The position numbers and the translations under genes were made by a program. This document shows positions 32,786-41,807 of a stretch of DNA of 64,000 bases, piece by piece; the first letter of the stretch is position 1; each line of letters starts with the position of its first letter. Source of the DNA: a phage. The stretch lies in the sequence record PZ179883.1, one strand, 5' to 3'. A model generated the notes under the pieces. It saw only the letters and a list, made by a program, of their open reading frames with translations. It was not told the DNA's origin and searched no databases.

Positions 32786-33588
<803 letters not shown>

Positions 33589-36560: not shown

Positions 36561-36824
36561 TTATTTCATATTATTGAAATATTCTTCTGCGATTTCGTCG
36601 TTATCATGGTAAACTTTAGAAGACAGTTTAACATAACCTTCTGCTGTGAACATATTAATCACAACTTTTACAGTATACCACTGACCGTCTTCATTACCCA
36701 TTACTGCGTAAGTTTCAAACATCGGATGGTCAGGACCGATGACTTTAATATCATTCACTGTACGACCGAAATCTTCTGAAACGCATTTCATAAAGAAGTT
36801 GAACAGTTCGCCGTAATTATCCAT
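36561..36824 (-). CDS. hypothetical protein (87 aa)
   Basis: Track ORF trimmed to ATG 36822-36824 with GGAGAA RBS, downstream of early promoter. Confidence 0.5.
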   Translation of the reverse strand: MDNYGELFNFFMKCVSEDFGRTVNDIKVIGPDHPMFETYAVMGNEDGQWYTVKVVINMFTAEGYVKLSSKVYHDNDEIAEEYFNNMK

Positions 36825-37020: not shown

Positions 37021-37046
37021 AAAAAGCCCTATCATTTAGATAGGGA
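37021..37046 (-). terminator. intrinsic terminator after internal-protein-like gene 37054-37617
   Basis: CCCUAUC-UAAAU-GAUAGGG followed by CUUUUUGG. Confidence 0.55.
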
Positions 37047-37053
37047 TTTAAAA

Positions 37054-37617
37054 TTATTTACCTAGTTTACTTATTATAGCTTCTGCAGCAGCTTTTAGCT
37101 TAGATGCAGTGTTAATACGATTTTTAATTTCAGTATACGCATCGCCAAGAACATCAAGGCTATCAGAATAAACACTTACACTATTGCGTTCGCTATTTGA
37201 AATAGAACCTTTAGTTTTGCGGTCAAAATCGGTGTACACGTCTTGAAGATCGCGGGCTGCCTTCTTTGCATCATCCAATGCATCAAGAGCTTTATTCAAA
37301 GCATTAACGTATTTTTTAGTGTCGAACATATTCTTAGAAATTTTAACAGGTGCGCGTTCAGGAGTAGCTAACACAGATTTAGGAACCTGAGCGCCAGATG
37401 CCAATTTCTTAGAAATTTTGAAAAATGCTTTATTGAATTTATTTTCTTGACTCATTGTAAAAGAACTATTATCGATGTTGTACATTTCAATAGCTTTAGC
37501 TTTCCACTTAAGAAAATCGCCGCGGTCTTTTGGGTCCAATTGGAAGAATACTTTAGTAAGATCTGCTTCAGATGGTAATTTTGCTGCTTCGGTTAAAAAT
37601 TCGGCATAGGTTTTCAT
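37054..37617 (-). CDS. internal-protein-like gene with capsid targeting sequence (187 aa)
   Basis: N-terminus MKTYAEFLTE; Ala/Lys-rich body; terminator hairpin after stop. Confidence 0.6.
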   Translation of the reverse strand: MKTYAEFLTEAAKLPSEADLTKVFFQLDPKDRGDFLKWKAKAIEMYNIDNSSFTMSQENKFNKAFFKISKKLASGAQVPKSVLATPERAPVKISKNMFDTKKYVNALNKALDALDDAKKAARDLQDVYTDFDRKTKGSISNSERNSVSVYSDSLDVLGDAYTEIKNRINTASKLKAAAEAIISKLGK

Positions 37618-37706
37618 TTAAAATCCTTGAAATAATTTATCGGTTGGTTATTAATTATTTATTACTTTGTTACTATCCGTAACAGCGTTATCCGAGTGAT
37701 TCAAAC

Positions 37707-37735
37707 TAAAAAGCCCCAACCTTTCGGTCGGGGCT
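37707..37735 (-). terminator. intrinsic terminator, copy 1 of a 31-nt identical element
   Basis: Minus-strand GCCCCGACC-GAAA-GGUUGGGGC followed by UUUUUAG; identical to 38262-38291. Confidence 0.7.
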
Positions 37736-37742
37736 AAGAATG

Positions 37743-38216
37743 TCATTTGATTTGTTTAGCAGACCAAATGCGGTCTTTAATAATTTTTTGGATGTCTTCA
37801 ACATACTCAAGAGAGTGAACATGTGGATTATCTTTGAAACTATAAGCACGGGCTAACTTTTGGCCTTCGGTTTTGATTACTAAAAGCTCTTTAAGGATAG
37901 CTTCATATTTAGCGATAATTCCTTTAACGATATTTTTTTCTTGTGCCGCTTTAGGATCTGCTTTAGGAGCAGGTTTACCCGAAGCCTTTGCAAAAGCAGC
38001 GCCAGTAGCAACTAAACTTTTCCAGGCCATACTAACTGCATTTCCCGTAAATCCTTCCGCTTTCATGTCGCGTGCAAACTGGAATCGCGATTCATCAGAA
38101 GCATCTTTATAGGAATATTTACCCGCGGCAATGGCAGCTTTTGCAACAGCTTGAATTTCGGTGCTAGATGCTTCATTTAACACCGCTTCATTTAAAAATT
38201 GAGTATATGATTTCAT
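37743..38216 (-). CDS. internal-protein-like gene with capsid targeting sequence (157 aa)
   Basis: ATG 38214-38216 with AGGAAA RBS gives MKSYTQFLNEAVLNEAS; track N-terminal extension overlaps the terminator. Confidence 0.6.
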   Translation of the reverse strand: MKSYTQFLNEAVLNEASSTEIQAVAKAAIAAGKYSYKDASDESRFQFARDMKAEGFTGNAVSMAWKSLVATGAAFAKASGKPAPKADPKAAQEKNIVKGIIAKYEAILKELLVIKTEGQKLARAYSFKDNPHVHSLEYVEDIQKIIKDRIWSAKQIK

Positions 38217-38253
38217 CTTATTTCCTGTTTTAATTTGTAGATTTAATATACTA

Positions 38254-38261
38254 ATATTTAT
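38254..38261 (-). promoter_or_regulatory. late promoter box TATAAATA upstream of internal-protein-like gene
   Basis: Minus-strand TATAAATA abutting terminator 38262-38291 and 38 nt upstream of ATG 38216. Confidence 0.5.
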
Positions 38262-38291
38262 ACCAAAAAGCCCCAACCTTTCGGTCGGGGC
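38262..38291 (-). terminator. intrinsic terminator, copy 2 of the 31-nt element
   Basis: Same hairpin plus U tract, at the downstream edge of the tRNA/small RNA region. Confidence 0.7.
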
Positions 38292-38342
38292 TAAGCCTTG
38301 CGGCAACCTTGTCGGGGTTCCACCTGCTAAGGCAAGTGTTTG

Positions 38343-38434
38343 TACGAAACGCCGGGATTCGAACCCGGTTATTAAGTAGTTGACGCTACTCAATATTTTT
38401 AAAAGGCCATATCTCGACCATATCCGAACGTTCC
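38343..38434 (-). ncRNA. tRNA-like small RNA candidate (perfect T-arm, 7 bp acceptor-like helix, non-canonical core)
   Basis: CCGGG-TTCGAAT-CCCGG T-arm at 38351-38367; 38344-38350 pairs with 38428-38434 (one G-U); no canonical anticodon arm; lies between CDS 38600-38950 and a terminator. Confidence 0.35.
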
Positions 38435-38599
38435 GTCAAAAACGCTACTCGGCTTACGGCAAAGATATTTCCTCGAATCGATAATTCGGTGCGCCGTTTC
38501 TGCTGTGATAGTAAAGAGCCAGAACACAGTAAAACTGTGGGAGGAAACTATACTCCAGGGAACATCAGTCCGACGACTTACCGGTAGCGACCCGGTTTC

Positions 38600-38950
38600 T
38601 TAATATTCTTTTAAAGAATCAATATATTCACGGCGTTTACGCCACAAATCAATTGCTTCATACGCGGATTCAGCATTTCGAATTAGCCGGCATTTATGTA
38701 AAGACTTATGATTTTGATATTGTGTAGATAACGGAATTGTATCTAAAAGGTCTTTACGATCAAAATATTCGTAACCATCTAAACCAAATGAACGATTTTT
38801 GAGAAATTGCCAATGACCATATTCGTTTTCGACATAAACATAATCTGCATGCTGATAAAGCAAATTAATTACACGTTCAGAAATAACAGTATCATTATGA
38901 TTAAAATAGAATGTTAAATCATGAACTACTAAATAAACATTACCTTTCAT
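38600..38950 (-). CDS. hypothetical protein (116 aa) embedded in tRNA/small RNA region
   Basis: ATG 38948-38950 with GAGGAAAA RBS, 17 nt downstream of tRNA-Arg. Confidence 0.55.
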   Translation of the reverse strand: MKGNVYLVVHDLTFYFNHNDTVISERVINLLYQHADYVYVENEYGHWQFLKNRSFGLDGYEYFDRKDLLDTIPLSTQYQNHKSLHKCRLIRNAESAYEAIDLWRKRREYIDSLKEY

Positions 38951-39046: not shown

Positions 39047-39128
39047 TGGGGTGACCGATGGGAGTCGAACCCATGACTACGAGAATCACAATCACAATCT
39101 CGAGTTCTACCAACTGAACTACGGCCAC
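39047..39128 (-). tRNA. tRNA-His-like (GTG) with 13-nt anticodon loop; possible pseudo-tRNA
   Basis: Acceptor, D-arm, T-arm and discriminator C resemble tRNA-His; anticodon stem CGAGA/TCTCG encloses TTGTGATTGTGAT. Confidence 0.55.
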
Positions 39129-39922: not shown

Positions 39923-40531
39923 TTATTTATTACGTGAAAAAGATTGTTCTATCAATTCTGGACACTTTCGTTCTATCCATTTTCTAGCTTTTTGTGGGCT
40001 TATACCTATTATTTTAGCAGCTTTACTAACCCATCCAAATTTAGAATAATCGATTTTAACTAATTCTTCGTAAATTTCATCAGTTAAAATCTTTTCATTA
40101 ATATTTACCAGTAAATGATATAATTTATTATCATTAGCAATTTTAATGAATCTTTTATAGTTTCCGCCTTTACTTAAACCTAATGAAGTAATTGCAGATG
40201 ATATAGTAGCCGAATTTAATAATGCGTTTAAAATTTCTTCATCACTAACATTATAACGCTTTTTATTATTTTTAATATTTTTACCAGCAAAAGTATCAGT
40301 TTGCGAATGGCAATTTGGACATAATAATCTTAAATTTGATTTAAGATGATTTTTGTTATTTCCATCAATATGGTCTAATTGCAGAACAATATGCTTATTT
40401 TGCCATTTTGAAATTTTACAAATTGCACACTCATATGGAAAAATATTTTCTTTTATTATTTTGTCTTTCAGCTTTCCTGTACTAAAATTTGGATGTTTTC
40501 CTTCAAAAATTTCAGCTAATTTAGTATCCAT
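39923..40531 (-). CDS. HNH homing endonuclease-like protein
   Basis: HNH motif LQLDHIDGNNKNH...LLCPNCHSQTD; 202 aa from ATG 40529-40531 (track start 40555 is TTG); stop abuts tRNA-Leu. Confidence 0.7.
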   Translation of the reverse strand: MDTKLAEIFEGKHPNFSTGKLKDKIIKENIFPYECAICKISKWQNKHIVLQLDHIDGNNKNHLKSNLRLLCPNCHSQTDTFAGKNIKNNKKRYNVSDEEILNALLNSATISSAITSLGLSKGGNYKRFIKIANDNKLYHLLVNINEKILTDEIYEELVKIDYSKFGWVSKAAKIIGISPQKARKWIERKCPELIEQSFSRNK

Positions 40532-40641
40532 AATATAATTCCCAATTATTAACAAAGGCTCTCTAACAAGAACCCTTGATGATAGAGGGTATTAATCAGT
40601 GCGATATGAGTTAATAATAACAAATAATTCTTAAAGCATAT

Positions 40642-41573: not shown

Positions 41574-41807
41574 TTATTTTTTACGAAAAATTGATTTATT
41601 TTCTGCTGCCCATTTTTCAATAACTGCAGCAGGACCAGTAACAACAATTTTATCACCGTAATCTTCTGCGGCGAGTTGACCGAAATTATCTAATGCATCA
41701 CGAAGAACTCCATGAGGCATTTCACCCATTTTATCTTTCTTGCCAGTGTAAATAAACTCAACTTTTACATCAGCAGTTTCAGCAATAAATTCTTGGTAAG
41801 TTTTCAT
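41574..41807 (-). CDS. ipI: internal protein I-like (capsid targeting sequence MKTYQEFIAE)
   Basis: ATG 41805-41807 gives the canonical IPI targeting sequence; alternative ATG at 41819 adds MEIK. Confidence 0.6.
   Translation of the reverse strand: MKTYQEFIAETADVKVEFIYTGKKDKMGEMPHGVLRDALDNFGQLAAEDYGDKIVVTGPAAVIEKWAAENKSIFRKK

What the first reader, a model, noticed from the sequence alone, without database searches (positions are those of the whole stretch)
37021..38291. Two internal-protein-like genes in a non-T4 position, bracketed by identical terminator copies
Both proteins begin with the MK(T/S)YxxFLxE capsid targeting sequence typical of T-even internal proteins cleaved by the prohead protease. 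They sit between nudE and the tRNAs rather than next to ipII. The 31-nt hairpin AAAAAGCCCCAACCTTTCGGTCGGGGCTAAG occurs identically at 37707-37735 and 38262-38291, suggesting cassette-style gain or duplication. Internal proteins are injected with the DNA and include known anti-restriction factors (IPI versus GmrSD), so new IP alleles are candidate anti-defence effectors.
Basis: partly seen in the sequence, partly recalled or inferred. Interest (0 to 1): 0.55.

Follow-up and report, generated by a model that had tools for sequence, protein, structure and literature searches.

The report
Two uncharacterised T4-like phage internal proteins
Two adjacent genes of a T4-like phage carry the short N-terminal tag that loads proteins into the phage head for injection, so they are probably extra members of the known, variable 'internal protein' class of candidate anti-defence factors, in a terminator-bounded slot that is empty in T2, T4 and T6.

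Summary
The window is a Tequatrovirus genome and the genes lie on the minus strand. Gene A (37054-37617, 187 aa) starts MKTYAEFLTE|A. Gene B (37743-38216, 157 aa) starts MKSYTQFLNE|AVLNE|A. Both carry the T4 capsid-targeting determinants (Tyr4, Phe7, Leu8-x-Glu10), and their mature forms are basic and Lys-rich like IPII*/IPIII*. The 31-nt hairpin is an exact repeat at 37708-37738 and 38265-38295. It brackets only gene B. Gene A ends at a different terminator (37021-37049).

The hairpin is the rnaC-side intrinsic terminator, which is single-copy in T4 and PST. Related genomes show four haplotypes: none, A only, B only, and A plus B. Every junction falls inside the terminator, which supports cassette gain and loss. 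B is preceded by TATAAATA, and its homologues occupy the same slot in Mosigvirus and Jiaodavirus. The slot is therefore a common internal-protein locus that is empty in T2, T4, T6 and PST.

A occurs in 165 phage records and B in 512, and every name seen was 'hypothetical protein'. Neither resembles IPI, IPII or IPIII beyond the tag, and no fold clue emerged. Packaging, cleavage and anti-defence function remain inferred. I rate them new members of a known kind, of modest interest.

The parts
38265..38295 (-). Hairpin copy 2, the intrinsic terminator downstream of the rnaC/rnaD-like RNAs. The stem is 38269-38292 with a GAAA loop, and the T-run is 38264-38268.
   Evidence: Exact 31-nt repeat. Terminator scan and fold give -20.3 kcal/mol. 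T4 and PST have a single copy at the same place.
38255..38262 (-). TATAAATA, the T4-type late promoter consensus, directly after the terminator T-run and 38 nt before the B start codon.
   Evidence: Read from the sequence. The fPS-90 record annotates a predicted late promoter at the equivalent site. Jiaodavirus KP1 has the same hairpin-TTTTT-TATAAATA-ORF arrangement.
38221..38226 (-). AGGAAA ribosome-binding site of gene B.
   Evidence: Read from the sequence.
37743..38216 (-). Gene B, 157 aa. It has the tag MKSYTQFLNE|AVLNE|AS with tandem L-N-E sites, a small helical domain (about residues 18-75), a Lys/Pro/Ala linker and a C-terminal helical hairpin. It equals RB32ORF132c and AR1_137.
37708..37738 (-). 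Hairpin copy 1, the terminator of gene B. The stem is 37712-37735.
37618..37707 (-). Region upstream of gene A. It holds only near-matches to the late promoter: AATAAATA at 37656-37663, also 38 nt before the ATG, and GATAAATT. The RBS AAGGA is at 37624-37628. This region travels with A in A-only genomes.
   Evidence: Promoter assignment is inconclusive.
37054..37617 (-). Gene A, 187 aa. It has the tag MKTYAEFLTE|AAK, a helical N-terminal part, a disordered linker (about residues 84-98) and a long C-terminal helical hairpin. It equals RB14ORF136 and Shfl2p135.
37021..37049 (-). Third, different terminator after gene A. The stem is 37027-37045, followed by CTTTTTGGTAT, which it shares with the hairpin region.
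38300..38600 (-). Homologues of T4 small stable RNAs rnaC and rnaD (approximate limits), ending at hairpin copy 2.
   Evidence: Window 38260-38600 aligns at 91% with T4 L002 7826-8169, which covers the annotated rnaC and rnaD. There is no Rfam family for them.
36561..36824 (-). e.8 homologue, the conserved downstream flank of the slot.
32786..33067 (-). 93-aa tag-bearing ORF at the canonical ipII/ipIII locus, between denV and e. It starts [10 protein letters not shown]|SILNE|AT and is named 'internal head protein' in some records.
41574..41807 (-). 77-aa tag-bearing ORF at the ipI locus. It is 95% identical to the IpVI annotated in phage PST and matches phrog_8111 'internal virion protein'.

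Best explanation
A and B are two further, mutually unrelated members of the polymorphic internal-protein (Ip) class of T-even phages.

Proposed mechanism:
1. Each gene is an autonomous module that ends in an intrinsic terminator. B is transcribed late from TATAAATA. The promoter of A is unclear.
2. The first ~10 residues (Tyr4, Phe7, Leu8-x-Glu10) act as a capsid-targeting sequence that binds the protein to the prohead scaffolding core.
3. The gp21 prohead protease cuts after Glu10 (in B possibly after Glu15). This releases basic mature proteins of about 19.6 kDa and 16 kDa that stay in the head with the DNA.
4. They are injected with the DNA. As shown for Ip1, Ip2, Ip3 and Bas37_0260, each most likely neutralises one particular host defence, probably a modification-dependent (Type IV) restriction enzyme.

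Shown here: the gene structure, the motif, its conservation, the protein composition, the late promoter of B, and the terminator-bounded presence/absence polymorphism.

Inferred: packaging, cleavage, injection and the anti-defence target.

The modules are gained and lost by recombination within the terminator sequences. Gene B lies between two direct copies of the rnaC terminator.
For: - Motif: A and B have Y4, F7, L8 and E10. These are the residues shown by mutagenesis to govern IPIII targeting and processing, and gp21 cuts after L/I-x-E (PMC9026906). The T4 record X04567 annotates IPIII residues -10 to -1 as a removed leader.
- Conservation: B homologues at 38-80% identity keep the motif (MKTYNEFL.., MKSYAEFLTE, MKFKEFLAE|AS), with Glu15 and Ser17 invariant, while the C-terminal half is replaced. 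The only distant homologue of A (31% identity) starts MITFNEFLNE|SEMINE|AG.
- Composition: mature A has pI 9.5, net charge +9 and 14.7% Lys. Mature B has pI 9.5, net charge +7 and 13.6% Lys. T4 IPIII* has pI 9.65 and net charge +10.
- Late promoter: TATAAATA follows the terminator before B. Klebsiella phage KP1 has the same arrangement with a different hairpin sequence.
- Polymorphism: the haplotypes are none (T4, PST, T2, T6), A only (G3F10), B only (AR1, ESh34) and A plus B (window, fPS-90). All junctions overlap by 28-40 nt inside the terminator.
- Precedent: Ip1, Ip2 and Ip3 each block one GmrSD variant (PMC12373910). A tag-bearing protein with no similarity to the T4 IPs beyond the tag blocks McrBC (bioRxiv 10.1101/2025.11.20.689424).
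Against: - I found no proteomic or genetic data for A or B.
- They have no similarity to the mature parts of IPI, IPII or IPIII and no Pfam or NCBIfam family.
- The predicted folds are generic helical hairpins, unlike the beta-sheet core described for IPI* in PMC3012670, and give no functional clue.
- The model of A has low confidence (pLDDT 58.5).
- A has no exact late promoter.
- The motif is only about 10 residues long, so the inference rests on a short signal.
Confidence: 0.7

Rival explanations
1. A and B are packaged, tag-bearing core proteins, but their role is structural or physicochemical. They would act as bulk basic proteins that help scaffold assembly and neutralise or organise packaged DNA, as was long assumed for the T4 IPs, with no specific host target.
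For: The mature forms are strongly basic and Lys-rich, with size and charge close to IPIII*. Both contain Lys/Pro/Ala-rich linkers and long helices. IPIII mutants show head-assembly aberrations, and about 300 copies per head were taken to mean DNA interaction (PMC9026906). In 10 of 10 genomes encoding exactly protein A, no ipII or ipIII lies between e and denV.
Against: A co-occurs with IPIII in Shfl2, G3F10, EcNP1 and phiE142, so it is not a simple substitute. T2, T4, T6 and PST do without both genes. Rapid presence/absence turnover fits arms-race genes better. All four tag-bearing proteins with an assigned function are defence inhibitors.
Confidence: 0.2
2. The N-terminal similarity is a by-product of recombination or of a shared translation-initiation region at the DNA level. 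The proteins would not be packaged and would be ordinary cytoplasmic accessory proteins.
For: The similarity to known IPs covers only about 11 residues. T4-type genomes shuffle modules through short homologies (PMC4122927).
Against: The motif is conserved at the protein level through codon changes and across genera, while neighbouring residues vary. The residues kept are exactly the functionally mapped positions 4, 7, 8 and 10. Four ORFs in the window begin with the motif, and three of them sit at known or recurrent IP loci. The B family has late promoters.
Confidence: 0.07
3. The two identical hairpins are independent terminators that look alike by convergence, not a duplication or recombination joint.
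For: GC-rich stem plus T-run terminators are common, and other genera use different hairpins at the same place.
Against: The two copies are identical over 31 of 31 nt, and over 36 nt in AR1, with 0 expected by chance. Genomes without B have exactly one copy, and genomes with B have two. The deletion and insertion junctions map inside the repeat.
Confidence: 0.03

Closest known systems
[quoted passage not shown]
   Same: They share the N-terminal capsid-targeting sequence with Tyr/Phe4, Phe7 and L/I8-x-E10. They are small and basic when mature, dispensable and polymorphic, and encoded as single-gene modules near the e/tRNA/57 region. The size and charge of A almost match IPIII*.
   Different: There is no detectable similarity beyond the tag. 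The genomic slot is different (e.8-rnaC). The predicted folds are all-helical and unlike IPI* as described in the literature. No virion or functional data exist.
Additional T-even Ips (Repoila et al. 1994, not readable here; PST IpIV-IpVI, Ip7 and Ip9 in annotations) and Bas37_0260, the McrBC inhibitor
   Same: All are proteins with unrelated mature parts that carry the same N-terminal leader, vary between close relatives, and are inferred or shown to be injected anti-restriction factors.
   Different: The named ones seen here are annotated at the ipI locus (57B to trna.4) or beside e. I found A or B named as an Ip in no database entry or paper. B is not PST IpIV, although both are 157 aa.
PeSL/PmSL mobile regulatory cassettes of T4-like phages (Arbiol 2010; Comeau 2014, PMC4122927)
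   Same: A stem-loop terminator joined to a promoter sits at the boundaries of indels in a hyperplastic region and appears to serve as the recombination joint.
   Different: The promoter that follows the hairpin is a late one (TATAAATA), not an early sigma-70-like or Mot-dependent one. No early-promoter match adjoins the hairpins. The window holds only two copies of this hairpin.

Membership tests
T-even internal proteins (tag-bearing Ips) | N-terminal ~10-residue capsid-targeting sequence with the targeting determinants at positions 4 and 7 | tested here: met
   A starts MKTYAEF and B starts MKSYTQF, so both have Tyr4 and Phe7. The determinants are taken from PMC9026906.
T-even internal proteins (tag-bearing Ips) | gp21 cleavage motif L/I-x-E at positions 8-10 | tested here: met
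   A has LTE|A. B has LNE|AV followed by a second LNE|AS. Glu15 is invariant in the B family.
T-even internal proteins (tag-bearing Ips) | Small, basic, Lys-rich mature protein | tested here: met
   Mature A is 19.6 kDa with pI 9.54. Mature B is 16.0 kDa with pI 9.50. T4 IPII* has pI 9.56 and IPIII* pI 9.65.
T-even internal proteins (tag-bearing Ips) | Late expression, so that the protein is present when the prohead core assembles | tested here: inconclusive
   B has an exact TATAAATA at 38255-38262, which is conserved in KP1. A has only the one-mismatch sequences AATAAATA and GATAAATT. No transcript data are available.
T-even internal proteins (tag-bearing Ips) | Physically present in the virion with the leader removed, and injected with the DNA | not testable with these tools
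   No proteomic report was found for A or B.
T-even internal proteins (tag-bearing Ips) | Non-essential and variable among close relatives | tested here: met
   Four haplotypes exist among Tequatrovirus genomes. T2, T4, T6 and PST lack both genes.
Homologues of T4 IPI, IPII or IPIII | Sequence similarity of the mature region | tested here: not met
   BLASTP aligns only residues 1-12. A and B are also unrelated to each other.
IPI*-type Type IV restriction (GmrSD) inhibitors | Compact IPI* fold of two beta-sheets flanked by helices (as described in PMC3012670) | tested here: not met
   The AF2 models of B (pLDDT 72.6) and A (pLDDT 58.5, low confidence) are all-helical. Structure searches return only generic helical hairpins.
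IPI*-type Type IV restriction (GmrSD) inhibitors | Inhibition of a specific GmrSD or McrBC enzyme | not testable with these tools
   This needs plating or biochemical assays.
PeSL (promoter-early stem-loop) cassettes | Stem-loop followed by an early sigma-70-like promoter | tested here: not met
   No minus-strand sigma-70-type match adjoins either hairpin. A late promoter follows copy 2.
PeSL (promoter-early stem-loop) cassettes | Located at indel boundaries in hyperplastic regions, acting as a point of exchange | tested here: met
   All haplotype junctions fall within the terminator sequences.
Rho-independent terminators | GC-rich stem-loop followed by a T-run on the transcribed strand | tested here: met
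   The hairpin has a 10-bp stem, a GAAA loop and UUUUU, at -20.3 kcal/mol with z about -4 to -5. It lies downstream of the rnaC homologue as in T4.

The most novel reading that the evidence does not exclude
The e.8-rnaC interval is a fourth internal-protein locus that spans Tevenvirinae genera but is empty in T2, T4 and T6. There, late-promoter/terminator-bounded modules are swapped by recombination within the terminator. A and B would each be injected inhibitors of a host defence not yet matched to any phage counter-measure, for example a further GmrSD/BrxU or McrBC-type enzyme, or a different system.
Probability: 0.4. Interest if true: 0.55.

Novelty: new member of a known kind. Interest (0 to 1): 0.35.

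Why it matters
Injected internal proteins act before any phage gene is expressed. Recent work shows that every one with an assigned function blocks one specific Type IV restriction enzyme. Each uncharacterised tag-bearing protein is therefore a ready-made probe for an unmatched host defence, and a possible determinant of host range in therapeutic T4-like phages.

A occurs in about a quarter, and B in about three quarters, of the 688 phage records that match this region. Both are absent from T2, T4 and T6, which may be why I found no study of them. The slot also gives a clean natural example of terminator-mediated module exchange.

The concept itself is not new, so a specialist would find this expected rather than surprising.

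Tried and rejected
- Homology of A or B to T4 IPI, IPII or IPIII, or to each other: only the tag aligns, and hhalign gives probability 21%. Both do match the mixed family phrog_2280.
- B as PST 'IpIV' (same length, 157 aa): unrelated.
- Pfam, NCBIfam and PDB sequence searches: nothing above threshold.
- Deep HMMER search for A: one distant T4-like homologue and nothing informative otherwise.
- Idea that A and B replace IPII/IPIII (mutual exclusivity): it was suggested. I rejected it because IPIII co-occurs with A in Shfl2, G3F10, EcNP1 and phiE142.
- Literature on virion proteomics or naming of these ORFs: none found. Repoila 1994 and the PST supplement are not held. I could not establish whether Bas37, the HIDEN-SEQ phage, carries A or B.
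- Rfam: there is no family for rnaC or rnaD, and only tRNAs were found.
- Early or middle promoter for A: no convincing match.

Full report
**What is there**

The window is a Tequatrovirus (T4-like) genome. A 1.5-kb query around the finding is 100% identical to many Escherichia, Yersinia and Shigella phages, including DalCa, D5505, Paracelsus and WilhelmHis; fPS-90 is 99.9% identical. Genes in this region run on the minus strand.

In the direction of transcription the order is as follows:
- the tRNA cluster (39916-38967);
- a 116-aa ORF;
- homologues of the T4 stable RNAs rnaD and rnaC (about 38600-38300);
- hairpin copy 2;
- gene B (38216-37743, 157 aa);
- hairpin copy 1;
- gene A (37617-37054, 187 aa);
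- a third, different terminator;
- e.8, e.6 and the other e.x genes down to nudE, then e, a 93-aa ORF and denV.

In T4 the e.8 gene is followed directly by a single hairpin and then rnaC. T4 has no gene in this interval and carries ipII and ipIII between denV and e.

**Checking the observation**

The 31-nt sequence occurs exactly twice, at 37708-37738 and 38265-38295. No match is expected in shuffled sequence. The finding's coordinates are off by 1-4 nt.

On the transcribed strand it reads AGCCCCGACC-GAAA-GGTTGGGGCT followed by TTTTT, which is a textbook intrinsic terminator. Its folding energy is -20.3 kcal/mol, with z-scores of -5.0 and -4.1.

The two copies flank gene B only. Gene A is followed by a weaker, different hairpin (stem 37027-37045, -10.5 kcal/mol). 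That hairpin shares only GGGCTTTTTGGTAT with the sequence around copy 2.

A six-frame scan for MK[ST][YF]..F gives five matches in 64 kb, and four of them start real ORFs. These are A, B, the 93-aa ORF at the ipII/ipIII locus and a 77-aa ORF at the ipI locus. The 77-aa ORF is 95% identical to the IpVI annotated in phage PST and matches phrog_8111 'internal virion protein'.

**Are A and B internal proteins?**

The defining experimental facts come from PMC9026906:
- The first 10 residues of IPIII suffice for incorporation into the head.
- Targeting depends mainly on residues 4 and 7.
- Processing depends on residues 8 and 10.
- The gp21 protease cuts after Glu in L/I-x-E.

A (MKTYAEFLTE|AAK) and B (MKSYTQFLNE|AVLNE|AS) have Tyr4, Phe7, Leu8 and Glu10. 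B has a tandem second L-N-E site.

The motif is conserved where the rest of the protein is not:
- B homologues from Mosigvirus, Jiaodavirus and a Yersinia phage are 38-80% identical. They begin MKSYAEFLTE, MKTYNEFL.. or MKFKEFLAE|AS, and Glu15 and Ser17 are invariant. The two most distant ones have a different C-terminal half.
- A has a very narrow family, at least 85% identical in 165 phage records. Its single distant relative (31% identity, from a T4-like metagenome contig) begins MITFNEFLNE|SEMINE|AG.

After removal of 10 residues, A is 19.6 kDa with pI 9.5, net charge +9 and 14.7% Lys. B is 16.0 kDa with pI 9.5 and net charge +7. This is the same range as T4 IPII* and IPIII*.

B is preceded by an exact T4 late promoter, TATAAATA (38262-38255), directly after the terminator T-run. 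Klebsiella phage KP1 has the same terminator-TTTTT-TATAAATA-RBS-ORF arrangement with a different hairpin sequence. A has only one-mismatch versions of the late promoter, so its transcription is unresolved.

Neither protein resembles the mature part of IPI, IPII or IPIII, or the other one. That is normal for this class, whose members share only the leader (PMC3012670; PMC12373910).

Pfam, NCBIfam and PDB sequence searches give nothing. The AlphaFold models are all-helical, with pLDDT 72.6 for B and 58.5 for A. Each shows a small helical domain, a Lys/Pro/Ala-rich or disordered linker and a long helical hairpin. Structure searches return only generic coiled coils.

**The slot and the cassette idea**

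In the phage collection, 688 records match some part of the 1.5-kb query. Of these:
- 127 cover at least 80% of it, meaning both genes are present;
- A is found by tblastn in 165 records;
- B is found in 512 records.

By subtraction, roughly 138 records have neither gene.

Representative loci show the rule clearly:
- T4 and PST have one hairpin and no gene.
- G3F10 has the A terminator, then A, then one hairpin.
- AR1 and ESh34 have a hairpin, then B, then a hairpin.
- The window and fPS-90 have the A terminator, then A, a hairpin, B and a hairpin.

In pairwise alignments the conserved flanks of each haplotype overlap by 28-40 nt exactly inside the terminator. So the B module is a 557-nt unit lying between direct repeats of the rnaC terminator. 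In AR1 the repeat is 36 nt identical. The A module (about 660 nt) is joined through the shared terminator half.

G3F10 (A only) and WilhelmHis (A plus B) are assigned to the same species, which indicates recent turnover.

B homologues occupy the same place, after the tRNA/rnaC region and before the e.6/e.8 homologues, in Mosigvirus mogra and Jiaodavirus KP1. B is therefore probably old at this locus, and the empty state looks like loss. T2, T4, T6 and PST are all empty here.

The terminator-plus-promoter joint resembles the PeSL/PmSL cassettes described for T4-like phages (PMC4122927). The difference is that it carries a late promoter rather than an early or middle one.

**Function**

What is shown here stops at the gene and protein anatomy. 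Packaging, cleavage and injection are inferred from the motif.

The anti-defence role is inferred from precedent. Ip1, Ip2 and Ip3 each inhibit one GmrSD variant without cross-protection (PMC12373910). A tag-bearing protein of phage Bas37 at the ipI locus, with no similarity to the T4 IPs beyond the tag, inhibits McrBC (bioRxiv 10.1101/2025.11.20.689424).

The main rival is a bulk structural or DNA-neutralising role. I tested one version of it, that A and B substitute for IPII/IPIII. In 10 of 10 genomes with exactly protein A, e is followed directly by denV. However, IPIII coexists with A in Shfl2, G3F10, EcNP1 and phiE142, so there is no strict exclusivity.

**Novelty**

Every annotation row and source name returned for A (RB14ORF136, Shfl2p135) and B (RB32ORF132c, AR1_137) is 'hypothetical protein', apart from one spurious JGI name. 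I found no paper that mentions them.

The class, its leader, its polymorphism and its anti-restriction role are all established. These are new members of a known kind at a locus that T2, T4 and T6 lack, not a new kind of system.

I estimate about 0.7 confidence that they are packaged, processed internal proteins. Conditional on that, I put about even odds on a specific anti-defence target.

Noticed in passing
window 39047-39128 (-): The tRNA-His homologue carries a 6-nt tandem duplication (GATTGT) in the anticodon arm relative to AR1 and G3F10. ARAGORN cannot assign an anticodon. It may be an inactivated tRNA or an assembly or sequence variant.
   Followed up: partly
window 38600-38950 (-): A 116-aa ORF (phrog_3355, unknown function) lies between the rnaD homologue and tRNA-Arg. 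T4, T6 and PST lack it. T2, AR1 and G3F10 have it.
   Followed up: no
window 39923-40555 (-): A 210-aa ORF with an HNH-type motif (CAIC...HIDGN...CPNCH) sits directly upstream of tRNA-Leu, where T4 has tRNA-Gln. The window has no tRNA-Gln and no segB inside the cluster, so a different homing-endonuclease arrangement is likely.
   Followed up: no
window 32786-33067 (-): A 93-aa tag-bearing ORF lies between denV and e and overlaps the e start by 4 nt. It has two tandem cleavage motifs (LSE|S, LNE|A), and its mature form is near neutral (pI 6.3), unlike the basic IPs. The exact sequence is seen on 541 contigs, and close variants occur in Mosigvirus and RB69.
   Followed up: partly
L009 1419-2526 (Logan SRR28624380 contig): The only distant homologue of A lies between a gene 30.3 homologue and an ART-PolyVal ADP-ribosyltransferase gene in a T4-like metagenome contig. 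This is a different genomic neighbourhood from the window.
   Followed up: no
L012-L021 (ten genomes encoding exactly protein A): In all ten genomes e is followed directly by denV with no ipII or ipIII between them. One of them has a 157-aa DUF7412 protein after denV, the same length as PST IpIV; I did not check homology. The IP complement therefore differs at several loci at once between close relatives.
   Followed up: partly
window 38296-38325 (-) and L007 3425-3460: Just upstream of hairpin copy 2 the window has a partial echo of the stem (CCCCGACAAGGTTG). In Mosigvirus mogra the corresponding place holds a single shorter hairpin, CCCCGACAAGGTTGGGG plus a T-run. This suggests the Tequatrovirus terminator arose by an internal duplication.
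   Followed up: no
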